Assembly: GCA_022641095.1 (NCBI GenBank)
Contig: JALCDB010000002.1
Coordinates: forward strand, 62,792-126,791
DNA from: Bacilli bacterium
GTDB taxonomy: Bacteria; Bacillota_I; Bacilli_A; RFN20; CAG-826
Direction of reading: 5' to 3'
Length of the DNA stretch: 64,000 nucleotides
The notes beneath the pieces were generated by a model, which worked only from the letters and a program-made list of their open reading frames with translations, was not told the origin of the DNA and made no database searches. Made by a program: the position numbers and the translations under genes. Below, one piece after another: positions 1 through 40,638 of this stretch (positions are counted from its first letter, which is position 1; every line of letters starts with the position of its first letter).

Positions 1-904
1 TGAGGACCCCCTCCCCATGCTGCGGATGTCGATTGCGCCGAAAACGGCAGCGCAAAGAGAACGGCTGCTGGACGCTCTTACGCAACTTGCGGATACTGAC
101 CCGCTTTTGCGCTGCGAGGTGGATTCCATCACCCATGAGATCATTCTTTCTTTTTTGGGCCGGGTGCAGTTGGAGGTTGTTTCCGCTTTGCTGTCGGAAA
201 AATACAAGCTTGAAACAGTGGTAAAGGAACCCACCGTCATTTATATGGAGCGGCCGCTCAAAGCAGCCAGCCACACCATCCATATCGAGGTGCCGCCCAA
301 CCCGTTTTGGGCATCCATCGGACTGTCTGTTACACCACTCCCGCTTGGCTCCGGTGTACAATACGAGAGCCGGGTTTCGCTGGGATACTTGAACCAGAGT
401 TTTCAAAACGCTGTCAGGGATGGTATCCGTTACGGGCTGGAGCAGGGCTTGTTCGGCTGGAACGTAACGGACTGTAAGATTTGCTTTGAATACGGGCTTT
501 ATTACAGTCCGGTCAGCACGCCGGCGGACTTCCGCTCATTGGCCCCGATTGTATTGGAACAGGCATTGAAGGAATCAGGGACGCAACTGCTGGAACCTTA
601 TCTCTCCTTCACCCTCTATGCGCCCCGGGAATATCTTTCCAGGGCTTATCATGATGCACCGAAATACTGTGCCACCATCGAAACGGTCCAGGTAAAAAAG
701 GATGAAGTTGTCTTTACTGGCGAGATTCCCGCCCGCTGTATACAGGCATACCGTACTGATCTGGCCTTTTACACCAACGGGCAGAGCGTATGCCTTACAG
801 AACTGAAAGGGTATCAGGCCGCTGTCGGCAAGCCAGTCATCCAGCCCCGCCGTCCAAACAGCCGCCTGGACAAGGTGCGCTATATGTTTCAGAAGATAAT
901 GTAA
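1..904 (+). CDS. tet(W): Ribosomal-protection tetracycline resistance protein, Tet(W)-like; C-terminal ~295 aa only, 5' end lies outside the window
   Basis: Translation (…[35 protein letters not shown]…[15 protein letters not shown]) aligns colinearly with the C-terminal domains IV/V of TetM/TetO/TetW-family RPPs. The exact allele call (W vs O/32) is from memory of the family. Confidence 0.8.
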
Positions 905-935
905 CGTCTTGCGCAATCGATTTATCACGCACGCA

Positions 936-965
936 TAGACAAAACGGCTCTAAAAGTGCTATAAT
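936..965 (+). promoter_or_regulatory. Near-consensus sigma70-type promoter, TAGACA-18 nt-TATAAT, immediately downstream of the tet(W) stop and upstream of the HTH gene
   Basis: TAGACA at 936-941 and TATAAT at 960-965 with an 18-nt spacer. GGAG ribosome-binding site (RBS) and ATG at 992 follow. Confidence 0.4.
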
Positions 966-991
966 TCTGAATAACAACTACGGAGTTTAAT

Positions 992-1183
992 ATGGACTAC
1001 GCCCGACTAATCAAAGAACTGCGTTCAAAAATGCTTTTATCACAGATGGAGTTCGCTGAGTACCTTGGCGTTTCTTTTTCTGCAGTCAACAGATGGGAAA
1101 AAGGTCGCTATGAGCCAACCATAAAAACAAAGCGTAAGTTGAAAGAGCTTTTTATTAAATATGGATTGGTGGATCGAGACTAA
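992..1183 (+). CDS. XRE-family helix-turn-helix transcriptional regulator (63 aa)
   Basis: MLLSQMEFAEYLGVSFSAVNRWEKG is a classic Cro/CI-type HTH. An RBS precedes it. Confidence 0.7.
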   Translation: MDYARLIKELRSKMLLSQMEFAEYLGVSFSAVNRWEKGRYEPTIKTKRKLKELFIKYGLVDRD

Positions 1184-1184
1184 T

Positions 1185-1841
1185 ATGGACTATAAAAAAA
1201 TAACGGAAAATATAAAAAGCGGATTCACAAAGGATCAACTAAAAAGCTTAGATTTGATCACCGGGTTTGATTCGCTCAAGCTCGCCAATGGTGGCGATAA
1301 TGATGCAGAAGGATATCAGATTTTCACCCCCGCTTTTATCGTGAAAGATATGGTCAAAGCGATAGGGGAGAAAGACGTTTTTAATCCGGATAAAACAGTG
1401 CTCGAACCGACATCAGGTGATGGGGCGTTCACTACTTATATTTTATTAAGAAGATTAGAACGTGCGTTCAAGGAAGATAAAGATGAATTCGAGATCCAGG
1501 CACTAAAGTGCTTGTCTACCATCTATTCTATAGAGATGGATAAGGATCTAATTATCAAGCAAAGAAACAACATCCTGACTGTCTTCACGATATTTGGAAG
1601 GGATCATAAAATCGATTATAGCGATGGGTATCTTGATCTCGTCCGCTGCATGATCCTAACAAATTTTATGTGGGCTATGTTCAATGCGGATATTCCTGCA
1701 ACGTTCTTAATAGTCGAGGTGGCATATAAGATGCCAGAAGCAGAAAAAGGAAAAATGAAGTCGTTAGAATTCCCCGTCTGGGATATATCTGGCAACGGCG
1801 TCACATATCACATGGAAGGAGCGGAGATTAACTATGATTGA
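1185..1841 (+). CDS. Small MTase-fold protein with N6-adenine MTase motifs X and I but no canonical (D/N)PP(Y/F/W) motif
   Basis: FTPAFIVKDMV (motif X-like), LEPTSGDGAF (motif I), YSIEMD (motif II-like). The position expected for motif IV reads ILTNFMW. An alternative in-frame start lies at 1161. The gene overlaps the next one by 8 nt (ATGATTGA). Confidence 0.5.
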   Translation: MDYKKITENIKSGFTKDQLKSLDLITGFDSLKLANGGDNDAEGYQIFTPAFIVKDMVKAIGEKDVFNPDKTVLEPTSGDGAFTTYILLRRLERAFKEDKDEFEIQALKCLSTIYSIEMDKDLIIKQRNNILTVFTIFGRDHKIDYSDGYLDLVRCMILTNFMWAMFNADIPATFLIVEVAYKMPEAEKGKMKSLEFPVWDISGNGVTYHMEGAEINYD

Positions 1842-3567
1842 TAAAAAGAAGAATGATGCTCTTGAAGCCGAACAAACCTATAAAACAGCTGTTGAATCAG
1901 CTAATGACTACATTGAGAACTTCGATATTTTAGAAACCATCACAAATGTTGGTAACGACGAGGTTTTCACACCGAGAAAAACGTGTGATATGATGCTCGA
2001 TTCTCTCCCGGATGAAGTCTGGCATAACCCGAATTATAGATGGCTGAACCCGGCCACCAAAAATGGCATTTTTGAAAGGGAGATCGCAATAAGATTAGAC
2101 GAAGGTTTAAAAGATGTGATTCCGGATCAAGAAAAACGCAGAAAGCATATCTTACAGAACATGATTCATGCTATTGGTCAAACTAAATTTACGGCCAACG
2201 TAGCGAGAAGAACACTTTATTATTGTTCATCCGCAAATAGGGCTTGTGACGGAATACTAGCCGAAGATGGACACTACGTTAATGGATACGCGATTGGAAA
2301 CGGAACGTGGTTTGCTGATGAAGAAGGCAATATTAAAACACCATGTACTGATCATGAATTTGTCGATAGTGCGGGACGAAGAATGCCATCTACATGCAAG
2401 GGCGAGGAAAGAAAAAAATATAAATGTAAATATTGCGGCATCAGTGGAGTCTCAAACTATAACGATGCAAATCAAAGAGAAAAATATGCGTACGAATTAA
2501 TCCATATTAATCATTTGATAATTGGAAAGCACATGAGCAATAGATTCTTTGGAGGTAACAAAGATATGAAATTTGACATTATTATTGGTAATCCACCTTA
2601 TCAACTTAACGATGGCGGTGCACAAGCCTCGGCCAAACCTATTTATCAGCTGTTCGTAGATCAAGCAAAAGCTTTAAATCCACATTATCTATGCATGATT
2701 ATTCCTTCTAGATGGATGGCTGGAGGAAAGGGCTTAGATGACTTCAGAGCATCAATGCTAAAAGATAGGCACATTCGAGTATTACACGACTATACTGATG
2801 CTAAAGAATGCTTCCCAAATAATGAAATAAAAGGCGGAGTTTGTTACTTCCTCTGGAACGGAAAAGAAGAAGGAAAGTGCAAAATTTATAAACATACTGA
2901 TGGCACCATTTCAACAAGCACGAGATATCTCAAAGAGGATGGTGTTGATGTTTTTATTCGTGATGAAAGACTGATTGAAATTTTAAATAAGGTTAAAGCC
3001 AAAAAGTTCAAATCTTTCATGGATATCGTATCGCCAAGAAAACCGTTCGGTTTAGCAGGTGATTTCTTTAAGGATCCAAAGAAATATGATCTCCCACCTA
3101 TTAGTGATAAAAAAATCGAAGGGGGAATAACAATCTGTGGTCTTGATGAACATTTACAAAGAGTAAAAAGATATGTTCCACAGGATTATCCACTCCCTAA
3201 AAAAACCTATTTGCATGGATACAAAATGTTTATGGCTAGAAACCAAGGAAGTGGCACATTCGGAGAACCTTTCTCTGTTCCAATGTTTGCATACGACAAT
3301 GAAATATGTACAGAAACTTTTATTGTTATAGGCACATTTAAAACTGAACAAGAGATGAAAAACTGTTATTCCTATATCAAAACTAAGTTTTTTAGAGCTC
3401 TAGTTGGCATCCGAAAATTAGATCAAAACGCATCTCAAAGCATATATGAATATGCTCCGTTGCTTGATTTTACTAAGCCGTGGAATGATAAAGAACTTTA
3501 TGCAATGTTCGGACTTAGCGATGATGACATCAAATTTATTGAAGAGAACGTTCAGGAGATGAATTGA
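1834..3567 (+). CDS. Gamma-class N6-adenine DNA methyltransferase (577 aa) with a Cys-rich insertion and a C-terminal target-recognition region
   Basis: EVFTPRKTCDMMLD (motif X), LNPATKNGIF (motif I-like), DIIIGNPPYQ (motif IV), then LCMIIPSRWMAGG as in TaqI/Eco57I-like MTases. GGAGG RBS upstream. Confidence 0.7.
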   Translation: MIDKKKNDALEAEQTYKTAVESANDYIENFDILETITNVGNDEVFTPRKTCDMMLDSLPDEVWHNPNYRWLNPATKNGIFEREIAIRLDEGLKDVIPDQEKRRKHILQNMIHAIGQTKFTANVARRTLYYCSSANRACDGILAEDGHYVNGYAIGNGTWFADEEGNIKTPCTDHEFVDSAGRRMPSTCKGEERKKYKCKYCGISGVSNYNDANQREKYAYELIHINHLIIGKHMSNRFFGGNKDMKFDIIIGNPPYQLNDGGAQASAKPIYQLFVDQAKALNPHYLCMIIPSRWMAGGKGLDDFRASMLKDRHIRVLHDYTDAKECFPNNEIKGGVCYFLWNGKEEGKCKIYKHTDGTISTSTRYLKEDGVDVFIRDERLIEILNKVKAKKFKSFMDIVSPRKPFGLAGDFFKDPKKYDLPPISDKKIEGGITICGLDEHLQRVKRYVPQDYPLPKKTYLHGYKMFMARNQGSGTFGEPFSVPMFAYDNEICTETFIVIGTFKTEQEMKNCYSYIKTKFFRALVGIRKLDQNASQSIYEYAPLLDFTKPWNDKELYAMFGLSDDDIKFIEENVQEMN

Positions 3568-3568
3568 T

Positions 3569-6500
3569 ATGAAGGTAGATGTCTATAGATCAACTGAGAT
3601 CAACACTTCTGATAGCGTTAAGATATCTGGCAAGACCAGACAGTTCTTCCTTGACGAAGCAAACGACACCGATCAAGATCTCATTCTCCTATATATGTAT
3701 ATATTGCCTTCCTTCCAGGGCCATGGCGTCAAGGTTGGCATGGCAAAATGCAGACCAGAAGAAACTTTCTGGCACGGCATTAAAGCCAGGATCGCGGAGC
3801 AAAAGCACGAGCTTGCTTTAACTGACGACCAATACAGCAAATATGGCCTCAAACGCGAGGTCGTTTACTGGGGCGTCTGCGTTGATGCCCACAATGAATC
3901 GTTTAAGGATTATCACGTCCACGATGAGATCATGCACAACTGTGCTGGGCTCGCCGAGAAAGAGCAGGAGTGGTTCCAGAACGTTCCTACTGAAGAACTA
4001 ATATCCGCCTTCGAAGCATGCAGAAAAAACGATGTTTCAAAGGATATTTACACGCCTAGAAAAGAACAGGCTAAGGTGATCGAGGATCTGAAGGAGTACT
4101 TCGGCAAATATCCAACCGGTCACAGGTTCCTTTTGAACTGCAAGATGAGGTTCGGGAAATCCTTCACGACCTACAAATATTGTGAGGAAGCCGGTCTCAA
4201 TAAGATCTTGATCTTAACGTTCATTCCGGCGGTTGAGTCCTCTTGGAGAGACGATCTCTGCCATATCAAGAAGGAATATAAGTATTTCACCGACTTCAAT
4301 CTCAGAAAGCCCACGTTCGATCTAAAATCGCACACTGAGCCCTATGTAGTGTTTTTGTCGTTGCAGAACTACTTAGGCAGGGATAGCCAAAGTGCCGATG
4401 TCAAAGCCAAGATCAAGAAACTGCAGGACGTTGATTTCGATCTAGTCGTTCTTGATGAATACCATTTCGGTGCCTGGAACACCAGAACCCAGGACACTTT
4501 CGAGGACCTTGATAAAGATTATCAAAAGAACCTGAAGGACACTAAGGACGTCATCGCCAAGTTTGCGATCAAGACGAAGAAGACGATCTGCCTATCCGGA
4601 ACGCCATTCAGAGCATTGGCCCGCGGCGAATTCAACAACGAGTCCAGCTCGACTTACTCATATTTCGATGAGCAAAGGAACAAATATCCGAAGAGCGAAG
4701 AAAACGACTTCACAGTGGTGGATCCTAAGTATGCCGAATTCCCGGATATGAAGATATTCGGCTATAACATGACGAAGCTATTCGGCAACCTAACCTCCAG
4801 CGTTTTCTCCGATGACAAGATGCTCGGAAACAAATATTTTTCATTGAATAAGTTCTTCGAGACCAAGAAGGACGTCAACTATAACGAGGATTACGTCTTC
4901 ATTTATGAAGAAGAAATAAAACAGTGGCTGGAAATCATCAAGGGTGCCTCTATCCACGGCGACAAATTCCCTTATTCCAACCCTAAGATGAAGCAGAATA
5001 ACAAGCACACCCTTTGGCTCATGCCTACGGTTAGTTCCTGTATAGCGATGGCCAGGTTGCTGAAAGCCGATGATTATTTCTGCAAATATCAAATCATCAA
5101 TCTATCGGACAAAAGCGTGGGGTCCGGAACGGATGCCTATGATTTCTTGATGGATAACATCCAAGCGGCAAAGAACACGAATAAACTCGGGAGCATAGCG
5201 ATCACGGTCAACAAACTGACGATCGGTGTAACGGTGAAGGAGTGGTTCAGTATCTTCGTTTTGAAGGATCTATCCAGCCCGGAATCCTATTTCCAAGCCA
5301 TCTTCAGAATCCAGACGCCATTCAAGAAAAACGGCCAAATTCTCAAAGAGAGTGGTTATGTTTACGACTTCAATATCGACAGGGCCGCTGCCTTGTTATT
5401 GAAATACGCCGAAGAGAGCTCAAGGGACACGAACTATACGAAGCTACAAATTGCTAGATTGATCGTTAAGTACCTGCCTATCTTCGTCAATGGCGACATG
5501 AGTCATCCGATTTCTGACAAGGTCTTCTATGAACTCGCCGAATATGGCGATGCCAGCGGCGTGCCGCTTTCAAGAAAGATCACAGACACTTCAAAAACCA
5601 CAAGGATGATGGATGACGAGGTGATTGCAGAGATGCTTAACGATAAAGAAGTAAGCGAGATCATTAAGCACGTCTTTGCTCATGCGAAATTTGGAAAAAC
5701 AAAAACACGCACAATCCCTCCTAAACCAGAAGACGGATTCCAGACCAAGATCGCCAAGGAAGGCCGCGACAAAGGCTATGCCTTAGGCTTGGAGGATTCC
5801 AAAAAATACGTTGACTTGGACGACAACGAAGTCCAGGCCGCTTTCGAGAAAGCAATCGAGGATTACGTGCTCGAGTATTGCTCCAAAGACTATGATGAAA
5901 ACCAGGTCATCTGGTATACGAACGGCTTCAAGAAAGGATACGAAGGCGGTGTCAACGCCCCGATCAAGAAGATTCAATGCGGAAAAGATGACGGCGTTAA
6001 GTTCGTGGATCAAGTCAAAGGCAAATTCGGACCTAATATCAAATATACGGAGGCTACGAAGCAGCAGATTGAGAACTTCGTCAAAGCCTATCTTAACGAT
6101 ATAAACAACATCCCTAAGGAATATAGGGGAATGCTCTACAAACGCTGGTATTGCGAGTCCTTTAGAAAAGCGGTAAGAAACGTCTTAACCCCGGTAGTGG
6201 ACAGCAAAGATAAGAATTCCGTTGAAGATGCCGATAATGTTATGAAGCATATCTTGGCCAGGCTGTTTGAATTCCTTTATATCTCCGTTTACAGAGAAAC
6301 AACCTTCCAGGAGATCTTCAGTAATGCTGACCCTAACGTTTTCTTAGAGGCTGTCGGTATCACGAAGAAGGACTTCGAGGTTTTGAATAAATATCACATC
6401 TTCCAAGAAGACGTTCTAAATAACTACATCCATGATTTCTTTGTTAACGAATCACTCGGATCAAAACTAGATCTCAATGACGCCAAGATCAAAGCCCAGT

Positions 6501-6907
6501 ACAGAAACAGCTTTGACTGGTTTGGCTTTGGTGTTGATGATGAAGGGGAAATCCATGTGGATGAGAATGTCGGAACTCAGATCATCAAAGATGAAGAACC
6601 CGAAAATGATGAGCAAGATATTGTCGAATCCGAGGTCGCTCCTGAATCTGAATCGATTATGGAAGAGGCCGCTGCAGAACCCGAACCAGAACCCGAGCCC
6701 GATCCGGAAATCGCTCCTGTTCCTGAACCAGTTAAAAAGGATCCGGTCGAACAGATAGAGGAATTGCTCCGAAAGAATCCTAAAGGAATGAAATCCGGCA
6801 AGATCGCCGAGCTTTTAGGCGTTAGCAAACGCGATATTAATAAGATCATGTACGCCAATAAAGACAAGTTTACGGTTGATTTTTTCTTCAATTGGAAACT
6901 TAAATAG
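3569..6907 (+). CDS. 1112-aa multidomain protein: N-terminal T5orf172/GIY-YIG-like domain, SNF2/SF2 helicase core, acidic PE-repeat linker, C-terminal HTH
   Basis: N-terminal LYMYILPSFQGHGVKVGMAK parallels the T5orf172 signature of the next gene. RFGKSFT (motif I), VLDEYH (DExH), LSGTPF (motif III), QAIFRIQT (degenerate motif VI). EPEPEPEPDPEIAPVPEP linker. C-terminal KSGKIAELLGVSKRDINKIMY. Confidence 0.65.
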   Translation: MKVDVYRSTEINTSDSVKISGKTRQFFLDEANDTDQDLILLYMYILPSFQGHGVKVGMAKCRPEETFWHGIKARIAEQKHELALTDDQYSKYGLKREVVYWGVCVDAHNESFKDYHVHDEIMHNCAGLAEKEQEWFQNVPTEELISAFEACRKNDVSKDIYTPRKEQAKVIEDLKEYFGKYPTGHRFLLNCKMRFGKSFTTYKYCEEAGLNKILILTFIPAVESSWRDDLCHIKKEYKYFTDFNLRKPTFDLKSHTEPYVVFLSLQNYLGRDSQSADVKAKIKKLQDVDFDLVVLDEYHFGAWNTRTQDTFEDLDKDYQKNLKDTKDVIAKFAIKTKKTICLSGTPFRALARGEFNNESSSTYSYFDEQRNKYPKSEENDFTVVDPKYAEFPDMKIFGYNMTKLFGNLTSSVFSDDKMLGNKYFSLNKFFETKKDVNYNEDYVFIYEEEIKQWLEIIKGASIHGDKFPYSNPKMKQNNKHTLWLMPTVSSCIAMARLLKADDYFCKYQIINLSDKSVGSGTDAYDFLMDNIQAAKNTNKLGSIAITVNKLTIGVTVKEWFSIFVLKDLSSPESYFQAIFRIQTPFKKNGQILKESGYVYDFNIDRAAALLLKYAEESSRDTNYTKLQIARLIVKYLPIFVNGDMSHPISDKVFYELAEYGDASGVPLSRKITDTSKTTRMMDDEVIAEMLNDKEVSEIIKHVFAHAKFGKTKTRTIPPKPEDGFQTKIAKEGRDKGYALGLEDSKKYVDLDDNEVQAAFEKAIEDYVLEYCSKDYDENQVIWYTNGFKKGYEGGVNAPIKKIQCGKDDGVKFVDQVKGKFGPNIKYTEATKQQIENFVKAYLNDINNIPKEYRGMLYKRWYCESFRKAVRNVLTPVVDSKDKNSVEDADNVMKHILARLFEFLYISVYRETTFQEIFSNADPNVFLEAVGITKKDFEVLNKYHIFQEDVLNNYIHDFFVNESLGSKLDLNDAKIKAQYRNSFDWFGFGVDDEGEIHVDENVGTQIIKDEEPENDEQDIVESEVAPESESIMEEAAAEPEPEPEPDPEIAPVPEPVKKDPVEQIEELLRKNPKGMKSGKIAELLGVSKRDINKIMYANKDKFTVDFFFNWKLK

Positions 6908-6916
6908 GTGACGAAT

Positions 6917-7579
6917 ATGGAACAAGAGAACTTTGGATATATTTATATTCTTACAAACCCGTCATTCCCGGATTACGTGAAGATCGGATACGCGGATGAC
7001 GTCAAATCGAGAGTGGAGCAGCTCAACAGAAGCGAGTGCACCCCATTCGCCTTTAGGATCTACGCCACGTATAAAGTGAGTGATCGCCTTAAAGACATCC
7101 CGGTCCATCAATTGATCGACATACTTAATCCGAGCTTGCGAAGCAAGGATGAAGTGGACGGGAAGCTTAGGGTGCGTGAATTCTATGCCATGCTCCCAGA
7201 GGAAGCATATTCGCTCCTCGAGAAGATTGCCAAGATCAACGGGTTAGAAAAGAACCTGGTCCTTTATAAGAAGACTAAGGCTGACGAGGCAGATGAGAAG
7301 GCCGCCGATAAGATCAGCCAATTAAGCAAGAATCGCCATCATTTCAGGGATTGCGAGTTTTCATCGAGCCTGACTGGGCACACATATATAGGCAAGACGG
7401 GCGATAACGGCACGCTTTGCATCATTGATAAACAAACAGGAGAGGAAGTTCCTAACAATTCCAAGCCTTCGAAAAAGGCTATTGTTAAGCAGGCAGTGGT
7501 GGACCTTGGCGGATCCGCCGATGGCCACGACACCCTCTATCAGCTGTACCATCAACTGACCAAGATCCTGGGGAAGTAG
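6917..7579 (+). CDS. T5orf172 (GIY-YIG superfamily-like, MUG113) domain protein (~220 aa)
   Basis: GYIYILTNPSFPDYVKIGYADDVKSRVEQLN matches the T5orf172 signature. The ORF track starts at a GTG at 6908; the ATG at 6917 has a GGTGA RBS. Confidence 0.6.
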   Translation: MEQENFGYIYILTNPSFPDYVKIGYADDVKSRVEQLNRSECTPFAFRIYATYKVSDRLKDIPVHQLIDILNPSLRSKDEVDGKLRVREFYAMLPEEAYSLLEKIAKINGLEKNLVLYKKTKADEADEKAADKISQLSKNRHHFRDCEFSSSLTGHTYIGKTGDNGTLCIIDKQTGEEVPNNSKPSKKAIVKQAVVDLGGSADGHDTLYQLYHQLTKILGK

Positions 7580-7592
7580 GAAGTGAATATTG

Positions 7593-8591
7593 ATGACCCC
7601 ATTAAACTACTCTCGCTTTTCACACATATTCTTCGATCACGCCATTTATAAGGATGTGACCGCTGTTTGCCGTGCGTTAATCGGAACTTTAGTCAACAAT
7701 GGGAATATAGAAAACTCGAGAGGCGAGATCTATACGATAAACAGCCAAGTAGCTAAGGAGTTCTACGATGGGACAGCCAGCATATATCCGGAATTAGCGT
7801 CCGGTGCTGATTATGTCCTTAGCAAGGATGAAGAATCCGACTCCATGTGCGAGATGATCCTCGAAGATAATGTCGCCGTTGCCCAGAGAAATGGCCTTTT
7901 TGATGACCTTCTCGAAGCCATTAAAGACGATGGTTTAATGAATGCTAGAACAAAGGCTGAGATGATCGGCTTATATGACGCCAAGGAATACGTGAAATTC
8001 TTTAGAGCGGCTTTCGCCTATGCCATGTCCACGGAGAACAAAACGGCTGCAAAAAAGGCGAAAAGAAAGGCACCATCAACTTTAAGTGAAAGAGTGGATG
8101 CGATCAAAGAGATGCTTGAAGAACTAAGACTTAAAAAGCCCGTTTTAATCGTGATTCCAGATGATCTGGAAGATAACGAAGTTATCTATGCAAGCGAGCT
8201 TTTTAAGGCTTACTCAGAGGATGCCATGGTGGCTTTCGCAACGAAGTCTGACCTTGTCGCCTATCCGAAATATGCCCGTGATTTTGAAAGGCAGAGAAAA
8301 GATTTCTATGCTGCCGAATCAATCAGGGTCGGGTTAAGGGACTGCCAATTGGAAGACAGCAACTTTGATGAGCTCAAAAAAGAAATAAATGACGGCGTGG
8401 AAATGACAGCCAGTGCTTTGTATAGTTCCGGCCTTGAAAAGATAAGATCGGTAATGGATAAGGCGGTCACCGTCCCGCTCTCATCTTTGCTGGCTTTGAT
8501 ACCTTCATGGATCGGGCCTTCAGAGAGAAAAGGCGTGGTTCACATGCTCGTCAATGACGGAAAGATAAAATGGGTGGACGAAGATGAATAA
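7593..8591 (+). CDS. Hypothetical 332-aa protein, first gene of a three-gene cassette (LmuA-position, no recognisable catalytic motif)
   Basis: ORF is coupled by an 8-nt overlap to the next gene. No motif recognised by eye. Confidence 0.4.
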   Translation: MTPLNYSRFSHIFFDHAIYKDVTAVCRALIGTLVNNGNIENSRGEIYTINSQVAKEFYDGTASIYPELASGADYVLSKDEESDSMCEMILEDNVAVAQRNGLFDDLLEAIKDDGLMNARTKAEMIGLYDAKEYVKFFRAAFAYAMSTENKTAAKKAKRKAPSTLSERVDAIKEMLEELRLKKPVLIVIPDDLEDNEVIYASELFKAYSEDAMVAFATKSDLVAYPKYARDFERQRKDFYAAESIRVGLRDCQLEDSNFDELKKEINDGVEMTASALYSSGLEKIRSVMDKAVTVPLSSLLALIPSWIGPSERKGVVHMLVNDGKIKWVDEDE

Positions 8592-9024
8592 GTTATATAA
8601 CTCCTCGTTTGAAATGGAACTAAGGACGCTCATGGTCCTTTATATCAGCCCTCTCGAATCCATGTCAGCAGACCAGATCTACTCGTTCGATTTCATCTGC
8701 TGCTACGGGGAGGATTTCGAAGTATCAGAAAATAACCTTCACGGGGACTCCGCGTATAAGTTTGGAGAACTGGCCCTGAGGAAGAGCGTGATCAACGATG
8801 CGGTCAAGGATCTGGTCGTCCGCGGTATGATCGATGTGGTCACCGGAGACGGCTTCAAATACAAGATCAACGATCGCGGGATCGAATTCATATCATCGCT
8901 GGATAACCAATATTCAGATTTATATACAAAGATCGCAGGCGATGCATTCACCAAATATGGGAAGCTCACCGAGCAAGAACTGCTAGCGATCATAAACAAA
9001 GCGGCAATGGGGAGGAATAAGTAA
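8584..9024 (+). CDS. Hypothetical 146-aa protein (middle gene of the cassette, LmuC-position)
   Basis: Translationally coupled on both sides (8591/8584 overlap; 9024/9027). Confidence 0.4.
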   Translation: MNKLYNSSFEMELRTLMVLYISPLESMSADQIYSFDFICCYGEDFEVSENNLHGDSAYKFGELALRKSVINDAVKDLVVRGMIDVVTGDGFKYKINDRGIEFISSLDNQYSDLYTKIAGDAFTKYGKLTEQELLAIINKAAMGRNK

Positions 9025-9026
9025 GT

Positions 9027-10784
9027 ATGCTTAAAATCACGAGATTATGGGCTAAATCAACAGACGGATCCATGTCGGAGATCCCTTTCACCGATGGATT
9101 GAATATTATCCACGGCCCATCAAACACCGGAAAGACTGTCATTGTCGACTGCATCGACTATATCTTCGGCGGCAAATTCACTCCAAATCCAACTCTAAAC
9201 CTCGAAGTGGTGGGAATGGATATGGATGCAAACGGGCATCATTATCACCTAAGTAGGGCATTCAATAGTCCTAACGTCCACGTTGAATCGGACGATGATA
9301 ACATCAAAGACGGAGATTACAGCTCACAGAAAAAACCTTCGCTTGGAGATATATATCTCCGTATGCTTGGAATGGAGCCTCCGATCAAGATCCTGTCATC
9401 GCTTAGCTATACCTTCCAGAACCTAACGTTTAGGGAGTTCTCCCATACCATCGTTTTGAAAGAGGATGACATAAGGGATAGAAAAAGCATTCTTATGCCA
9501 ACCCAGAAGACGTCCGAGACCGTCCTCAAATCGGCGGTACTTTATTTGATAAATGGGCTCACCTACGCGGATCCGAACATCGAGAGCCCTAAGGAGCGTG
9601 CGAAAAGGAAAAAGATCCTGGCGAAATATATCAACGAGAGGATCGGCAAATATAAAACCCTCATAGAACAATATGAGAAGGACAAAAAAGAAGGCTCTGA
9701 TCAGTTCAAGACATCGATTGACGATATTTTGGGCCAAATCGAGTCCACGCAAGGCCAGTTGAACGATAATATCGCCGCTTCGGGAAAACTATCTGGCGAG
9801 TTGATGGAAATCAGCGACAAGATCGCCGAATGCGAGAACCTTGGTGACAAATATACGATTCTTCATTCTCAATATGAGTCCGATCTCCGCAGAATGCAGC
9901 TCATCATAGATGGCGAAACGCATGCGGACGAAGTCGAGAAGATCACTAAGTGTCCGTTCTGCAACGGAGAGCTGCCTAAAGAACAGGAGCAATCCTGCGT
10001 TGAAGCGGCACAAGCTGAATTGCTTAAACTGATCCCTCAAATCAAGGACCTCGAAGATGCTCAGGGTGATCTAGTCAAGGAAAAGGAAGAACTCCAAGCC
10101 AAGAAAGCCGAACTTGAAGGAAAGATAAATGAGCTCGAGGCCAAGATCAACAGCGAGATCAAACCGCTTTTAGCAAAGCTAAGGAATCAACTCAACCTTT
10201 ACAAGGAATCTATCCATAGCGAGGCGGAATATGAAAGCGATAAAAAGATCCTCGCCGATTTGGAGAACCAGCTACGCGAATTGACCGAGGAAAAAGTCGA
10301 GAACGAACGCTTTAATCAGCTCGAGTGCTTCGATGACAGGTTCATCAACACGATAACCAGATATCTCAGAGAGGCATTGGCCGCCTCGAATTACGAGGGT
10401 GCCGAAACATGCATATTTGACATTAATCAGTTCGATGTCAGGGTTAACGGCCAAATGAAACAGCACGAAGGCGAAGGCTACCGCGGATTGCTTAATTCGA
10501 TCACGGCTGTCGCGTTCCACAGGATGCTGCTAGACAACGCCAAATATAAACCTGGATTGCTAATCATGGATTCGCCGATCCTGTCATTGAAGGAAGCGGA
10601 TAGTGTTCCGTTGGACGACTCAATGAAGAAGGGGTTATTCAACTACCTGGCACAGACCGCCGAGAACATGCAGATCATAGTGGTGGAGAACGAGCTGCCT
10701 GAATTCGACAGCGAGAAAGCCAACCTGATCCATTTCACAAAAGACGACAATGGCCGCTACGGCTTCATATCAAACGTCAGATAA
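9027..10784 (+). CDS. SMC/Rad50-like ABC ATPase with a central coiled coil bearing a CxxC hook-like motif (Lamassu LmuB / DUF3732-like)
   Basis: Walker A IIHGPSNTGKTV. Long heptad-rich middle region with CPFCNG. C-terminal GEGYRGLLNSITAVAFHRML…PGLLIMDSPILSLKE (Walker B/D-loop-like). Confidence 0.6.
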   Translation: MLKITRLWAKSTDGSMSEIPFTDGLNIIHGPSNTGKTVIVDCIDYIFGGKFTPNPTLNLEVVGMDMDANGHHYHLSRAFNSPNVHVESDDDNIKDGDYSSQKKPSLGDIYLRMLGMEPPIKILSSLSYTFQNLTFREFSHTIVLKEDDIRDRKSILMPTQKTSETVLKSAVLYLINGLTYADPNIESPKERAKRKKILAKYINERIGKYKTLIEQYEKDKKEGSDQFKTSIDDILGQIESTQGQLNDNIAASGKLSGELMEISDKIAECENLGDKYTILHSQYESDLRRMQLIIDGETHADEVEKITKCPFCNGELPKEQEQSCVEAAQAELLKLIPQIKDLEDAQGDLVKEKEELQAKKAELEGKINELEAKINSEIKPLLAKLRNQLNLYKESIHSEAEYESDKKILADLENQLRELTEEKVENERFNQLECFDDRFINTITRYLREALAASNYEGAETCIFDINQFDVRVNGQMKQHEGEGYRGLLNSITAVAFHRMLLDNAKYKPGLLIMDSPILSLKEADSVPLDDSMKKGLFNYLAQTAENMQIIVVENELPEFDSEKANLIHFTKDDNGRYGFISNVR

Positions 10785-10802
10785 AACGTTATATAAGAAC
10801 AC

Positions 10803-10834
10803 GCCTCATCACGCAAAGTGGTGGGGCTTTTTTC
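10803..10834 (+). terminator. Rho-independent terminator closing the nine-gene block
   Basis: GCCTCATCAC-gcaaa-GTGGTGGGGC hairpin (with G·U pairs) followed by TTTTTTC. Confidence 0.5.
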
Positions 10835-10907
10835 ATGTCCGAAAACAGTCTACTTATTTTCACTTATTTTGCACTTATCCTGGCTTTTTGAGTAATCGAA
10901 ATGACCT

Positions 10908-10941
10908 GGGTTAAGATGGATCCGTGGCCGATATAAAGACC
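10908..10941 (+). promoter_or_regulatory. Copy 1 of a conserved phage regulatory element (GGTTA…GTGGCCGAT(A/T)TAAAG…), upstream of the sigma-like gene
   Basis: GGTTAAGATGGATCCGTGGCCGATATAAAGACC. Compare the copies at 15851 and 40018. Confidence 0.35.
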
Positions 10942-11118
10942 ACATAAAACTTCTCGTTGAAGAGATGGGCCCATCGAAACAGCGGGATGCATCGCGGGTT
11001 CCTGGAAAGGGATCACAGCAATGCCTCCTGTTTTCAAAATGCCTTTAAAAGGCAGAAATAGGCCGATCGCTCCGCTTTGCATCCTGCTCCTCAAACGGGA
11101 GAAAGGACCAGCAAAGCT

Positions 11119-11661
11119 ATGACAAACAACGAAAAACCAAAGATCGTAATTGACGACCCATCATTACTCAAACCGACAGAGGACAGACCTTACCCTTACC
11201 AGCTCGAAGGCACGAACATCATCATCTACTTATCGGAGAAGGACTACACCCCGATCCACCGCATGGAGGAAGCCGAACGAATGGCTTCCAGACGCGAGAG
11301 CAGATGCCTGATCCCCGCCAAAGAGCGTGGCGAATGGATGAGGTGCCAGGGTGACTGCTCACAGTGCCCCCGCACCCGCACAGGTCGTCCTCTTTCTTTA
11401 GATCAGCATGCAGAAGAAACGGGAAACGAGCCGGCAGGGGATGACGATATCGCCGCCGAACTGGACAAAAAGGAGCGTTTAGAGAGCCTTTTGTACGCCA
11501 TCCCTGAATTAGATCCAATCGACCAGAAAATCGTGTCCCTGTACCTGAATTACGCAACCGAGAGCCAAATAGCTGCCGAGTGTGGGGTATCGCAGCCCGC
11601 GATAAACAAAAGACTGAAGAATCTCGTCACCAAGCTCAGGGAAATCATCAAAAAATCATGA
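11119..11661 (+). CDS. Sigma-70 region-4-like / phage transcriptional regulator with a Cys cluster
   Basis: C-terminal IVSLYLNYATESQIAAECGVSQPAINKRLKNLVTKLRE is a sigma region 4 HTH. CQGDCSQCP cluster. The track ORF starts at 11077; the ATG at 11119 is preferred. Confidence 0.5.
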   Translation: MTNNEKPKIVIDDPSLLKPTEDRPYPYQLEGTNIIIYLSEKDYTPIHRMEEAERMASRRESRCLIPAKERGEWMRCQGDCSQCPRTRTGRPLSLDQHAEETGNEPAGDDDIAAELDKKERLESLLYAIPELDPIDQKIVSLYLNYATESQIAAECGVSQPAINKRLKNLVTKLREIIKKS

Positions 11662-11665
11662 TCCA

Positions 11666-11715
11666 GGTTATAAGGCTCCCCCTAGAAGTCCGAATTAAAG
11701 TGAGGCCGATAGATG
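11666..11715 (+). promoter_or_regulatory. Copy 2 (rearranged variant) of the conserved phage regulatory element
   Basis: GGTTATAAGG…AGTCCGAATTAAAGTGAGGCCGATAGATG, followed by AAGGAGG and an ATG (a 48-codon ORF at 11725-11871). Confidence 0.35.
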
Positions 11716-11870
11716 ACCTTAAAGGAGGACCCGAATGGAAGACTTAAAAAGCCCCGCCGATGAGCTTCAGCAAGCAATCGAAGCCTTGGCGGCAATATCT
11801 CTCACCTCTGATCTTCTGGCAAAGAAGCTAATAGGCCTTTCGCTAAAGATAAAGGAGGGCCAAGACCAGA

Positions 11871-12173
11871 ATGAGCGAAAACAATCTTAAAAAGGTTGAT
11901 GAGCTAGTGGTGGACTTGATCGAAAAACTAACCGATCTCCACGAAAAGCTCAACCAACCAAAGAAGGAGAAGCAAGCTCCTGCACCCGAACCTAAGCCGG
12001 AAATCAAACTCGAAGACGTACGCCACGTACTAGCCGAGATTGCCAGGGACGGAAAGGCCGAAGAGGTGCGTAAGTTGCTCGCTAAGCACAATGCTAAGCG
12101 TCTATCCGAAGTAAAACCGGAGGAATACGCAACCTTGCTAGAAGAAGCAAAGGACCTCAGCAATGCCGGCTAA
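11871..12173 (+). CDS. Hypothetical phage protein (100 aa, charged, helical)
   Basis: ORF with RBS; first long gene of the replication module. Confidence 0.4.
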   Translation: MSENNLKKVDELVVDLIEKLTDLHEKLNQPKKEKQAPAPEPKPEIKLEDVRHVLAEIARDGKAEEVRKLLAKHNAKRLSEVKPEEYATLLEEAKDLSNAG

Positions 12174-12345
12174 AGGGCATGCGTTGCTTGGTCCATCGGC
12201 TAGCCATATATGGCTAAAATGTCCGCCTTCAGCCCGTCTATCCGAATTCATCAAGGACCAGGAAACGGAGTTCACGAAGGAGGGCGAAGCGGCACATCAG
12301 CTCGCCGAGAACAAATTAAAGGAGGCGTTATCACATGAAAGATAA
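12163..12345 (+). pseudogene. N-terminal fragment (60 aa) of the Cas4-like DUF2800 nuclease, in a different frame from the main body
   Basis: HALLGPSASHIWLKCPPSARL is the conserved N-terminus of DUF2800/Cas4-like phage exonucleases, including the N-terminal Cys ligand. Confidence 0.45.
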
Positions 12346-40436: not shown

Positions 40437-40638
40437 GAAGATCGAATCCTATCTCTCCTCTTTTAAGGTCGCTGAAACCATGTTCAAAAAGGGCGTGATC
40501 AATGATGGGGAACTCAGAAAAATAGAAGCCGAACTAGCCAAGAAATACGGCCTGCCATCGAACTCAATTGTCCGAATTGACTTGCTAAGTTCTCTTACCA
40601 GAGAAAACATGAATTCGGGTGATATAAATGAAAGTTAA
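40423..40638 (+). CDS. Hypothetical small protein (71 aa)
   Basis: ORF overlapping the neighbouring genes. Confidence 0.3.
   Translation: MEVSKKIESYLSSFKVAETMFKKGVINDGELRKIEAELAKKYGLPSNSIVRIDLLSSLTRENMNSGDINES

What the first reader, a model, noticed from the sequence alone, without database searches (positions are those of the whole stretch)
992..10834. Nine co-directional, translationally coupled genes between tet(W) and the prophage form one promoter-to-terminator unit: candidate composite defence locus
Every junction in 992–10784 is ≤13 nt or overlapping: 1183/1185, an 8-nt overlap at 1834–1841, 3567/3569, 6907/6917, 7579/7593, an 8-nt overlap at 8584–8591, and 9024/9027. The only recognisable promoter is TAGACA-18-TATAAT at 936–965. 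The only strong terminator is at 10803–10834. The block is noticeably more AT-rich than both tet(W) and the host chromosome. It combines an HTH regulator, two MTase-fold genes, a GIY-YIG-like helicase, a T5orf172 protein and an SMC-like ATPase cassette. Multigene defence systems that pair a MTase with helicase/ATPase partners are established (BREX, DISARM), but this gene set does not match any of them as far as I can recognise. It could be two adjacent systems or a single larger one.
Basis: partly seen in the sequence, partly recalled or inferred. Interest (0 to 1): 0.75.

Follow-up and report, generated by a model that had tools for sequence, protein, structure and literature searches.

The report
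Prophage-borne three-module defence island
The block is a tightly packed, probably co-transcribed stack of three separate anti-phage modules on the arm of a prophage (an uncharacterised restriction-modification-like set, a lone T5orf172 nuclease gene and a standard Lamassu system), not one new nine-gene machine.

Summary
The coordinates, the tight junctions, the promoter (936-965), the terminator (10803-10834) and the low G+C are real. There are eight genes, not nine.

The last three genes (7593-10784) are a textbook Lamassu system, LmuA-LmuC-LmuB (PADLOC E 4e-54, 3e-45, 5e-163).

Gene 5 (6917-7579) is a free-standing T5orf172/GIY-YIG protein (PADLOC candidate PDC-S57). Its relatives sit 2-13 nt behind unrelated genes: HsdR, a Type III-like Res, glyA.

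Genes 2-4 form a universally linked triad:
- a ~215-aa SAM-binding methyltransferase-like protein without NPPY;
- an Eco57I-class adenine methyltransferase with a target-recognition domain;
- a T5orf172-like/SF2-helicase protein.

The methyltransferase sits directly upstream of the helicase in 58 of 58 genome loci across phyla. In other bacteria the two are fused into one chain. This is a split, Type ISP-like ATP-dependent restriction-modification system. It is catalogued by annotation pipelines but has not been studied experimentally.

Only 2 of 54 triad loci carry Lamassu and 2 of 54 carry gene 5, so the modules are independent. The two loci with Lamassu also carry the same phage replication genes, so the block belongs to the prophage.

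Verdict: a composite defence island of mostly known kinds, of moderate interest.

The parts
936..965 (+). Sigma-70-type promoter with an extended -10 (TAGACA-18-TATAAT, TG at 957-958). It is the likely promoter of the whole block.
   Evidence: Best match in the scan. 'TAAAAGTGnTATAAT' is conserved upstream of g1 homologues in L027 and L102, while the flanking sequence is not. Function is inferred, not shown.
992..1183 (+). g1: a 63-aa HTH_3 (Xre-type) regulator, a candidate controller (C-protein-like) of the restriction-modification-like module.
   Evidence: Pfam HTH_3 at 1.3e-10. Present upstream of the triad in 9 of 27 close relatives and absent in others. No operator palindrome was found.
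1185..1841 (+). g2: a 218-aa small methyltransferase-fold subunit. SAM-binding motifs X (FTP), I (LEPTSGDGAF) and II (E-M-D) are invariant. The catalytic NPPY is replaced by N-F-x-W.
   Evidence: - The family has 268 full-length homologues; the invariant residues come from the alignments.
- AlphaFold2 gave pLDDT 85.7.
- The best Foldseek hits are the adenine methyltransferase domains of CamA, LlaGI/LlaBIII and BsaXI, but only partially (TM 0.3, E 3e-3).
- None of 39 relatives has [NDS]PP[YFW].
- A homologue lies directly upstream of g3 in essentially every locus.
1834..3567 (+). g3: a 577-aa Eco57I/TaqI-class (gamma) N6-adenine DNA methyltransferase with a Cys-rich insert and a C-terminal target-recognition domain. 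NPPY lies at residues 253-256.
   Evidence: - Pfam Eco57I at 3.7e-29.
- PADLOC MTase_II at 1.4e-52, and the C-terminal part (positions 987-1321) of the fused model REase_MTase_IIG at 1.9e-31.
- NPP[YFW] is present in 71 of 76 relatives.
- The N-terminal half is conserved and the C-terminal half divergent against L004.
- It lies directly upstream of g4 in 58 of 58 loci.
3569..6907 (+). g4: a 1112-aa putative restriction subunit. It has an N-terminal T5orf172/GIY-YIG-like domain (about residues 40-150), an SF2 helicase-like ATPase (GKS 196-198, DEYH 296-299, SGTP 343-346), a helical region, an acidic/proline-rich linker and a C-terminal winged-helix domain (about 1057-1112).
   Evidence: - PADLOC REase_MTase_IIG positions 159-595 at 1.4e-29.
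- The motifs are invariant in 25 homologues.
- T5orf172 reaches only E 0.054 in g4 itself, but is significant at the same position in relatives P0275, P0306 and the Rhizobium protein.
- The C-terminus matches ORF6N/HTH_11 at 5e-4.
- Foldseek finds XPB/SNF2-type translocases on a poor model (pLDDT 59.5).
6917..7579 (+). g5: a 220-aa free-standing T5orf172/MUG113 (GIY-YIG clan) protein, matching PADLOC single-gene candidate PDC-S57. It is a gene-sized cassette between two variable defence slots.
   Evidence: - Pfam T5orf172 at 6.3e-11 and PADLOC PDC-S57 at 5.8e-59.
- The family has more than 5700 homologues.
- Homologues at 60-70% identity lie 2-13 nt behind g4, a Type III-like Res, HsdR or SHMT.
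- DNA homology starts at the RBS/ATG and ends at the stop codon.
7593..8591 (+). g6: LmuA, the Lamassu effector subunit. The C-terminal domain is CTD6; the N-terminal ~195 aa match no recognisable domain.
   Evidence: Pfam CTD6 at 5.7e-37, and PADLOC LmuA at 4.4e-54 over its full length. The N-terminus has no Pfam hit even at E 10.
8584..9024 (+). g7: LmuC, the Lamassu/ABC-3C middle component MC2.
   Evidence: Pfam MC2 at 3.6e-37 and PADLOC LmuC at 2.5e-45.
9027..10784 (+). g8: LmuB, the SMC/Rad50-like ABC ATPase of Lamassu (Walker A GPSNTGKT at residues 30-37, with a coiled-coil middle).
   Evidence: PADLOC LmuB at 4.8e-163 over its full length. There are weaker SMC, Rad50 and AAA_23 matches.
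10803..10834 (+). Intrinsic terminator closing the block.
   Evidence: A 10-bp stem (6 G-C), a 5-nt loop and a T6 run. It is the top hit of the scan, with -18.5 kcal/mol for the 60-nt context.

Best explanation
Positions 992-10784 are a defence island carried on the left arm of a serine-recombinase prophage. It is packed as one probable operon but built from three functionally independent modules.

Module A (g1-g4) is a restriction-modification-like system.
- g1 is probably a small HTH controller.
- g3 is an Eco57I-class N6-adenine methyltransferase with its own target-recognition domain. It would recognise an (inferred asymmetric) site and methylate host DNA.
- g2 is an obligatory ~215-aa methyltransferase-fold partner that keeps the SAM-binding motifs but lacks NPPY. 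It most likely acts as a non-catalytic or atypical SAM-binding subunit of the g3 complex.
- g4 supplies an SF2 dsDNA-translocase motor and a T5orf172 (GIY-YIG-clan) nuclease. On unmethylated sites it would hydrolyse ATP, translocate and cut. This is the split-gene equivalent of the single-chain nuclease-helicase-methyltransferase enzymes found in other bacteria, and has Type ISP-like logic.

Module B (g5) is a free-standing T5orf172 nuclease cassette. Its relatives recur right after different ATP-dependent restriction genes. Its role is unresolved: a defence candidate, an R-M accessory, or a homing-endonuclease-like gene marking a recombination boundary.

Module C (g6-g8) is a standard Lamassu system. 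The LmuB SMC-like ATPase with LmuC senses phage DNA or replication structures and releases or activates the LmuA effector. The effector domain here is unidentified.

Shown: the gene content, the family memberships, the linkage statistics and the phage context. Inferred: co-transcription, the enzymatic activities, the role of g2 and any phage protection.
For: Lamassu: all three proteins match their PADLOC and Pfam models over the full length, in A-C-B order with overlaps.

Triad:
- g3 is directly upstream of g4 in 58 of 58 genome loci with enough flank, from 76% down to 30% identity. These span Firmicutes, Actinobacteria, Bacteroidales, Gastranaerophilales, Proteobacteria and Fusobacteria.
- A g2-like ORF lies directly upstream of g3 in essentially all of them, and in RefSeq plasmids.
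- Fused T5orf172-ResIII-Eco57I chains exist: P0306, P0364, P0362, P0381 and L. lactis pCV56A.
- The catalytic and ATPase motifs are invariant.

Independence of the modules:
- Lamassu occurs in 2 of 54 triad loci and g5 in 2 of 54.
- The neighbours downstream of g4 are heterogeneous and often other defence genes.
- g5 relatives lie behind HsdR, behind a Type III-like Res, or alone.
- None of 12 viral CTD6-Lamassu loci has a g5-like gene.

Prophage location:
- L027 and L028 carry the same eight-gene order followed by the same DUF2800/SSB/PolA/primase module at 36-69% identity, but with uvrC rather than tet(W) upstream.
- L102 has g1-g5 followed by phage primase, HNH and terminase genes.

Operon: junctions are 13 nt or less, every start has an SD-like sequence, the extended -10 is conserved, and there is one strong terminator.

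Literature:
- Morgan 2009 (PMC2731913) predicted methyltransferase + helicase + GIY-YIG R-M systems.
- Smith 2013 (PMC3553950) noted uncharacterised Type ISP/IIL relatives with helicase subunits and GIY-YIG nucleases.
Against: - There are no experimental data for this locus or for the triad family.
- The T5orf172 assignment in g4 itself is sub-threshold (E 0.054), and the g4 structure model is poor (pLDDT 59.5).
- No sequence similarity to LlaGI or LlaBIII is detectable.
- The related B. subtilis DnmA-YeeB-YeeC cluster gave no phage protection (PMC9973331).
- The same eight-gene order recurs at 36-69% identity in L027 and L028, which could mean selection for the combination rather than mere co-inheritance.
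- g5 adjoins g4 in several lineages (window, L102, L030, L032, and a divergent MUG113 gene in L027), so it may belong functionally to Module A.
- Internal promoters cannot be excluded. A 10-of-12 match with TG lies at 1966-1994.
Confidence: 0.72

Rival explanations
1. The eight genes form one integrated defence system, in which restriction-modification-like sensing, the T5orf172 nuclease and the Lamassu SMC complex depend on each other.
For: - Translational coupling throughout, with a single promoter and terminator.
- The same eight-gene order, with similarly tight junctions, recurs in the Erysipelotrichaceae MAGs L027 and L028 at only 36-69% identity.
- LmuA here has no recognisable effector domain, and a nuclease gene lies 13 nt upstream.
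Against: - 52 of 54 triad loci lack Lamassu and 52 of 54 lack g5.
- The PADLOC Lamassu models (LmuA, LmuC, LmuB) are met in full by g6-g8 alone. That Lamassu works autonomously is established knowledge, not tested here.
- None of 12 viral CTD6-Lamassu loci carries a g5-like gene.
- In L027 and L028 the phage backbone is conserved too, so co-inheritance on one phage lineage explains the shared order.
Confidence: 0.07
2. Two systems rather than three. g1-g5 would be a five-gene YeeABC-like restriction system in which the free-standing T5orf172 protein g5 is the working nuclease or an essential partner of the g4 motor, followed by Lamassu.
For: - g5-type genes directly follow g4 in the window, L102, L030 and L032, and a MUG113+DUF4357/RAMA gene follows it in L027.
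- g5 relatives also follow other helicase-type restriction genes.
- The methyltransferase-helicase-T5orf172 order is conserved around DnmA, and homologues in Vibrio crassostreae affect phage sensitivity (PMC9973331; PMC2731913).
Against: - Only 2 of 54 triad loci in the genome survey have g5, and only 2 of 47 first downstream genes are MUG113/T5orf172.
- g4 keeps its own invariant GIY-YIG-like motif residues.
- The Type III-like Res and the HsdR that precede g5 relatives have their own nuclease domains.
- A g5 relative sits alone after glyA among housekeeping genes.
- DNA homology is limited to the g5 coding sequence.
Confidence: 0.14
3. Module A is not a restriction system. It would be an orphan or epigenetic methyltransferase complex with a relic or repurposed helicase, as proposed for B. 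subtilis DnmA, or a methylation-dependent regulatory device of the phage.
For: The B. subtilis dnmA-yeeB-yeeC cluster showed no R-M or anti-phage activity (PMC9973331). No activity data exist for the triad.
Against: - Linkage of all three genes is strict across phyla.
- The ATPase and nuclease-motif residues are invariant.
- The recognition half of g3 is hypervariable, which is typical of arms-race specificity switching.
- The triad sits in defence islands, plasmids and prophage arms next to Mrr, GmrSD, Mokosh-like helicases and similar genes.
Confidence: 0.07

Closest known systems
Lamassu (ABC-3C; LmuA-LmuC-LmuB, e.g. DdmABC of Vibrio cholerae)
   Same: g6-g8 have all three components in A-C-B order: a CTD6-bearing LmuA, an MC2-type LmuC and an SMC-like LmuB with a Walker A motif. 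All match over the full length.
   Different: The N-terminal effector domain of LmuA (~195 aa) matches no Pfam family and no solved structure by sequence. The system is prophage-borne and directly coupled to upstream genes.
[quoted passage not shown]
   Same: Taken together, g4 and g3 share the domain logic: an N-terminal nuclease, an SF2 helicase-like motor, a gamma-class N6-adenine methyltransferase and a target-recognition domain. Single-chain relatives of g4+g3 exist, many on lactic-acid-bacteria plasmids. The g2 fold search touches the LlaGI/LlaBIII methyltransferase domain.
   Different: The system is split into separate genes. The nuclease is T5orf172/GIY-YIG-like, not Mrr/PD-(D/E)xK. 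There is an extra obligatory small NPPY-less methyltransferase-like subunit. No sequence similarity to LlaGI or LlaBIII is detectable by phmmer or hmmsearch.
DnmA(YeeA)-YeeB-YeeC cluster (MmeI-like methyltransferase + SF2 helicase + T5orf172)
   Same: The parts list and order match: adenine methyltransferase with a recognition domain, then an SF2 helicase, then a T5orf172 gene (g3-g4-g5). It was predicted long ago to be a Type I-like R-M system with separate motor and GIY-YIG nuclease (PMC2731913; PMC9973331).
   Different: - g3 has no MmeI-family Pfam match.
- g4 is 1112 aa, with its own T5orf172-like domain and a winged-helix tail.
- The separate T5orf172 gene is not conserved with the triad (2 of 54 loci).
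- The conserved third partner is instead the small g2 protein upstream.
- A direct comparison with the YeeA/B/C sequences could not be made with these tools.
Type III restriction-modification (Mod/Res)
   Same: A two-subunit methyltransferase-with-recognition-domain plus an SF2 ResIII-type helicase-nuclease, for which an asymmetric site and single-strand methylation are plausible. Relatives of g4 match Pfam ResIII.
   Different: The methyltransferase is gamma-class Eco57I-type, not beta-class N6_N4_Mtase. The nuclease is N-terminal and GIY-YIG-like rather than a C-terminal PD-(D/E)xK. There is a third, g2, subunit.
PADLOC candidate PDC-S57 / phage T5orf172 homing-endonuclease-like genes
   Same: g5 matches PDC-S57 at 5.8e-59. 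Like the T5orf172 genes described at boundaries of genetic exchange in phages (PMC10448857), it sits between two variable cassettes in phage-like elements.
   Different: PDC-S57 is an unvalidated candidate. No DNA-binding or target-site information exists for g5, and no homing has been shown.

Membership tests
Lamassu (ABC-3C) | SMC/Rad50-like ABC ATPase LmuB | tested here: met
   PADLOC LmuB PDLC03867 at 4.8e-163, residues 4-584 against model positions 6-603 of 605. Walker A is GPSNTGKT. The coiled-coil region matches SMC/Rad50 models.
Lamassu (ABC-3C) | Middle component LmuC | tested here: met
   Pfam MC2 at 3.6e-37 and PADLOC LmuC at 2.5e-45, both over the full length.
Lamassu (ABC-3C) | LmuA with an ABC-3C C-terminal domain fused to an effector domain | tested here: inconclusive
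   CTD6 at 5.7e-37 and LmuA model PDLC03857 at 4.4e-54 are met. The N-terminal effector domain has no identifiable family.
Lamassu (ABC-3C) | Protection against phage or plasmids | not testable with these tools
   Needs cloning and plating assays.
Type ISP restriction-modification | Single polypeptide carrying nuclease, helicase, methyltransferase and target-recognition domain | tested here: not met
   The functions are split between g3 and g4. Fused relatives exist elsewhere.
Type ISP restriction-modification | Mrr-family PD-(D/E)xK nuclease domain | tested here: not met
   The N-terminus of g4 aligns to T5orf172 (E 0.054 in g4; 2.3e-5 to 5e-8 in relatives). No Mrr match was found.
Type ISP restriction-modification | SF2 helicase-like ATPase motor | tested here: met
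   GKS, DEYH and SGTP are invariant. Relatives match ResIII. Foldseek finds XPB/SNF2 translocases, on a weak model.
Type ISP restriction-modification | Gamma-class N6-adenine methyltransferase plus target-recognition domain | tested here: met
   g3 matches Eco57I at 3.7e-29 and has NPPY at 253-256. Its C-terminal half is divergent, as expected for a recognition domain.
Type ISP restriction-modification | Sequence homology to LlaGI/LlaBIII | tested here: not met
   No PDB hit for g3, g4, the A1 profile or the fused L. lactis protein.
Type ISP restriction-modification | ATP-driven translocation and collision-dependent cleavage at head-to-head sites | not testable with these tools
   Needs biochemistry.
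DnmA-YeeB-YeeC cluster | MmeI-like methyltransferase lacking the nuclease domain | tested here: not met
   g3 matches only Eco57I, with no MmeI_* Pfam family at E<=0.01.
DnmA-YeeB-YeeC cluster | Conserved separate T5orf172 gene downstream of the helicase | tested here: inconclusive
   It is present in the window (g5), but in only 2 of 54 triad loci and 2 of 47 first downstream genes.
Type III restriction-modification | Beta-class Mod (N6_N4_Mtase) and Res with a C-terminal PD-(D/E)xK nuclease | tested here: not met
   g3 is Eco57I-type, and g4 has no C-terminal nuclease match.
BREX / DISARM | PglZ, BrxC, BrxL (BREX) or DrmA, DrmB, DrmC (DISARM) alongside the methyltransferase | tested here: not met
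   No PADLOC match to any of these for the eight proteins at E<=0.01.
R-M controller (C) protein | Small HTH gene at the head of the operon with palindromic operator boxes (C-boxes) in its promoter | tested here: inconclusive
   A 63-aa HTH_3 protein is coupled to g2. No inverted repeat of 8 nt or more was found upstream in the window or four relatives.
PADLOC PDC-S57 | Match to the candidate's HMM | tested here: met
   PDLC05043 at 5.8e-59. The candidate itself has not been validated experimentally, and no paper in the library mentions it.

The most novel reading that the evidence does not exclude
The g2-g3-g4 triad may be a distinct and so far uncharacterised class of ATP-dependent restriction-modification enzyme. 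A T5orf172/GIY-YIG nuclease-translocase would work with an Eco57I-class methyltransferase and an obligatory, NPPY-less, SAM-binding 'half-methyltransferase' subunit. That small subunit could have a new role, such as SAM sensing or licensing of the nuclease, or non-catalytic partnering of the methyltransferase as METTL14 partners METTL3. A separate possibility is that the g5 T5orf172 cassette drives the swapping of restriction-modification cassettes at a phage defence hotspot.
Probability: 0.35. Interest if true: 0.6.

Novelty: new variant of a known kind. Interest (0 to 1): 0.38.

Why it matters
The main result is a correction. An apparently novel nine-gene system resolves into Lamassu, a T5orf172 cassette and a restriction-modification-like triad, stacked in one operon on a prophage arm that directly abuts tet(W).

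The triad is the useful lead.
- It has strictly conserved three-gene linkage across at least six phyla. The pattern scan found 341 matching stretches in species-representative genomes, plus many plasmids, including dairy lactococci and clinical enterococci.
- No experimental characterisation turned up in the literature searches.
- Its small methyltransferase-like subunit without a catalytic motif has no explained role.

The locus also illustrates how temperate phages of gut Firmicutes carry variable defence slots, here immediately next to an antibiotic-resistance gene.

Tried and rejected
- AlphaFold2 of g4 with 25 homologues gave a poor model (pLDDT 59.5). The Foldseek hits (XPB, SNF2) support only a generic SF2 motor.
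- Sequence searches of the PDB with g3, g4, LmuA, LmuB, the g4 profile and the fused L. lactis protein found nothing useful.
- NCBIfam gave no specific family for g3-g7.
- The weak PADLOC MADS (mad1, mad2, mad3) hits were rejected. They are marginal (E 1e-4 to 1e-5), partial, and better explained by generic HTH, methyltransferase and ABC folds.
- g2 as a truncated pseudogene was rejected: 268 full-length homologues of about 215 aa have invariant motifs.
- g2 plus g3 as two halves of one split methyltransferase was rejected: g3 has its own TaqI-like motifs X, I and IV.
- The search for C-box operators found none.
- Rfam found nothing in 1-12500.
- Megablast of the block against deposited phages gave no match.
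- The viral-contig scan with g5 found no relative. The scan with g4 found only two loci, which were not analysed further.
- g5 as a general Lamassu partner was rejected: it is absent from 12 viral CTD6-Lamassu loci.
- Conserved DNA flanking g5, which might have been a homing site or its own promoter, was not found.
- The minus-strand ORF at 10864-11094 looks non-coding.

Full report
**Observation.** The ORF listing and the gene calls on two metagenomic contigs that carry the identical block (L001, L002) show eight + strand genes between 992 and 10784:
- g1 992-1183
- g2 1185-1841
- g3 1834-3567
- g4 3569-6907
- g5 6917-7579
- g6 7593-8591
- g7 8584-9024
- g8 9027-10784

Each start has a Shine-Dalgarno-like sequence. 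The best sigma-70 match in 700-11500 is TAGACA-18-TATAAT at 936-965, with TG at 957-958. The best + strand terminator is at 10803-10827 plus a T-run, with -18.5 kcal/mol for the 60-nt context. Promoter-like sites inside the block are not enriched (13 found against 18.5 +/- 4.6 in shuffles), so the scan neither shows nor excludes internal promoters. The extended -10 element 'TAAAAGTGnTATAAT' is conserved about 26-30 nt upstream of the g1 homologue in two diverged relatives, while the surrounding DNA is not. This is the best available support for a real promoter. G+C is 0.378 for g1-g3, 0.446 for g4, 0.481 for g5 and 0.458 for g6-g8. This compares with 0.534 for tet(W), 0.487 for the phage and 0.543 for host DNA. 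The block is therefore AT-rich but not uniform.

**What the genes are.**
- g6, g7 and g8 are LmuA (Pfam CTD6 5.7e-37; PADLOC 4.4e-54), LmuC (MC2 3.6e-37; 2.5e-45) and LmuB (4.8e-163, full length). This is a complete Lamassu/ABC-3C system in the usual A-C-B order. Only the N-terminal ~195 residues of LmuA remain unassigned.
- g5 is a 220-aa T5orf172/MUG113 protein and matches PADLOC single-gene candidate PDC-S57 (5.8e-59).
- g1 is a 63-aa HTH_3 protein.
- g3 is an Eco57I-family adenine methyltransferase with TaqI-like motifs X and I and NPPY at 253-256. It matches the C-terminal part (positions 987-1321) of a 1359-position REBASE-derived 'Type IIG' PADLOC model.
- g4 matches positions 159-595 of that same model. 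It has invariant GKS, DEYH and SGTP helicase motifs.
- The N-terminus of g4 (residues 42-149) aligns end to end with T5orf172, but only at E 0.054. The same position is significantly T5orf172 in relatives: P0275 at 5e-8, P0306 at 6e-9 and a Rhizobium plasmid protein at 2.3e-5. The GIY-YIG-like residues Y42, Y44, K55, G57, R74 and E134 are invariant in 25 homologues.
- The C-terminus of g4 is a winged-helix/ORF6N-like domain (5e-4).

**g2.** This 218-aa protein belongs to a family of 268 full-length homologues of about 215 aa. FTP, LEPTSGDGAFT and E-M-D (methyltransferase motifs X, I and II) are invariant. N-F-x-W stands where NPPY would be expected. None of 39 relatives in the surveyed loci has a canonical [NDS]PP[YFW]. 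A confident model (pLDDT 85.7) resembles only part of the adenine-methyltransferase domains of CamA, LlaGI/LlaBIII and BsaXI (TM 0.3, E 3e-3). Distant plasmid homologues match only the first third of Pfam N6_Mtase. It is therefore a conserved, truncated, SAM-binding methyltransferase-fold protein whose catalytic competence is doubtful.

**Neighbourhood survey.** A scan of one genome per species found 341 stretches related to g4, of which 80 loci were fetched.
- Among 58 loci with at least 3 kb of upstream sequence, a g3 homologue lies directly upstream in 58 of 58. Identity runs from 76% down to about 30%. The loci span Firmicutes, Actinobacteria, Bacteroidales, Gastranaerophilales, Proteobacteria and Fusobacteria.
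- Iterative profile search finds a g2-like ORF (about 205-265 aa, or a 330-365-aa variant that matches the REBASE-type model PDLC03390) directly upstream of g3 in essentially every locus.
- RefSeq plasmids show the same thing under PGAP names. Rhizobium phaseoli pRphaN671a has 'N-6 DNA methylase' (215 aa), then 'Eco57I ... methylase' (538 aa), then 'GIY-YIG nuclease family protein' (847 aa).
- Bacillus cereus and Lactococcus lactis pCV56A have the small 'N-6 DNA methylase' followed by a fused helicase-Eco57I protein of 1437-1452 aa.
- The HTH gene g1 is detectable in only 9 of 27 close relatives.
- Among 54 loci with at least 5 kb downstream, only 2 have a g5 homologue and only 2 (L027 and L028) have Lamassu.
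- The first gene downstream of g4 is heterogeneous and often another defence gene: Schlafen-type or Mokosh-like helicases, Mrr, RAMA, GmrSD, HNH, or STAND NTPases.

So g2-g3-g4 is an autonomous and ancient three-gene unit.

**g5.** Its family is very large, with more than 5700 hits. The sampled contexts of homologues at 60-70% identity were:
- alone, 8 nt after glyA (SHMT), among housekeeping genes (L097);
- 2 nt after a Type III-like Res in an HTH-Mod-Mod-Res cassette of a phage-like element (L099-L101);
- 12 nt after HsdR of a Type I system in a related element (L107);
- after g4 without Lamassu, followed by phage primase, HNH and terminase genes (L102).

The Res and HsdR proteins have their own nuclease domains. 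DNA similarity among these contexts begins at the g5 ribosome-binding site and ends at its stop codon. The genes after g5 also vary: Lamassu, NACHT, a Sel1/TPR protein, or DUF4143/NERD. g5 is thus a gene-sized cassette sitting between two variable defence slots. This fits three readings that I cannot separate: a stand-alone defence candidate, an accessory of ATP-dependent restriction enzymes (compare YeeC; PMC2731913, PMC9973331), or a homing-endonuclease-like gene at a boundary of genetic exchange, as described for phage T5orf172 genes (PMC10448857).

**Context.**
- The DNA upstream is tet(W) at 99.9% identity to plasmid copies. That homology stops at 917, which is 19 nt before the -35 element.
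- Downstream lie a sigma-like gene, a DUF2800 PD-(D/E)XK nuclease, an Enc34-type ssDNA-binding protein, PolA, a D5-type primase and an SNF2 helicase.
- After further ORFs that were not annotated here come two large serine recombinases at 40628-43509, followed by host genes.
- In the Erysipelotrichaceae MAGs L027 and L028 the same order is followed by the same phage replication genes: HTH, g2, g3, g4, a MUG113/DUF4357 protein, LmuA, LmuC, LmuB. Identities are 36-69%, and uvrC lies upstream instead of tet(W).

The simplest reading is that the block is the cargo arm of a prophage lineage, not host DNA next to a prophage. Shared descent on that lineage then explains the repeated eight-gene order.

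**Mechanism (inferred).**
- Module A is the split-gene form of single-chain nuclease-helicase-methyltransferase enzymes, and is architecturally Type ISP-like.
- g3, with g2 bound, would recognise and methylate a site. g4 would be recruited at unmethylated sites, translocate with ATP and cut with its GIY-YIG-like domain.
- The conserved N-terminal half and divergent C-terminal half of g3 against L004 fit swapping of recognition domains.
- It is not a member of the Type ISP family: it is split, it lacks an Mrr nuclease, it has no detectable homology to LlaGI or LlaBIII, and it has an extra subunit.
- It is not Type III, because the methyltransferase class and the nuclease position are wrong.
- It is not BREX or DISARM, because no marker genes are present.
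- It is not demonstrably YeeABC, because g3 is not MmeI-like.
- The R-M literature has noted such uncharacterised relatives (PMC2731913; PMC3553950). I found no paper that characterises them.
- Module C should work as other Lamassu systems do.

**Verdict.** The interpretation as a single novel composite system is not supported. The locus is a prophage-borne, probably co-transcribed island of three independent modules. One of them, the g2-g3-g4 triad, is a widespread, annotated but experimentally unexplored variant of ATP-dependent restriction-modification, with an unexplained NPPY-less methyltransferase-like subunit.

Noticed in passing
window 1-917: tet(W) is 99.9% identical to copies on Corynebacterium and Limosilactobacillus plasmids. 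Homology ends at 917, which is 13 nt after the stop codon and 19 nt before the -35 of the defence operon. A resistance gene therefore directly abuts the prophage arm.
   Followed up: partly
window 992-3567 versus 3569-10784: G+C steps up at the g3/g4 boundary, from 0.378 to 0.446-0.48. This suggests that the g1-g3 part, which includes the specificity-determining methyltransferase, was exchanged separately from g4.
   Followed up: no
L011 12420-16220; L027 9995-13774; proteins P0029, P0039, P0048: A subset of g4 homologues is about 1260 aa long and carries a GGACT (gamma-glutamyl cyclotransferase-like, PF06094) domain. Its role in a helicase-nuclease is unexplained.
   Followed up: no
L009 15352-18435; L011 16869-19973; L034 6952-10056: In several loci a Mokosh-like (MkoA/MkoC) SF1 helicase of about 1030 aa follows g4. 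It starts 1 nt after g4 in L009, after a 215-aa unknown protein in L011, and about 20 nt after g4 in L034. This may be another recurrent partner, or simply a neighbour in a defence island.
   Followed up: partly
window 40628-43509; L033 15052-17890: Two overlapping large serine recombinases mark the far end of the prophage. In L033 a pair 48-50% identical to them lies 1.7 kb downstream of a g4 homologue. The triad may therefore also travel on other elements that use this type of recombinase pair.
   Followed up: no
window 10785-11118: A 335-nt gap without a convincing gene lies between the terminator and the first phage gene. The minus-strand ORF at 10864-11094 translates to a low-complexity-looking product, and there is no Rfam match.
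   Followed up: partly
window 1054-1070: A terminator-like hairpin followed by TTTCTTTTTC lies inside the g1 coding sequence. It is the second-best + strand hit. It could attenuate transcription of the operon, or it could be chance.
   Followed up: no
L123 3305-7663 (L. lactis pCV56A): The fused helicase-Eco57I relative common on Lactococcus and Enterococcus plasmids has DUF4145 at its N-terminus where g4 relatives have T5orf172. The nuclease or N-terminal module of this family is therefore interchangeable.
   Followed up: no
L027 13789-14484: The gene at the g5 position in the diverged eight-gene relative combines MUG113 with DUF4357/RAMA ('restriction enzyme adenine methylase associated'). 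This hints at a functional tie between this slot and R-M systems.
   Followed up: partly
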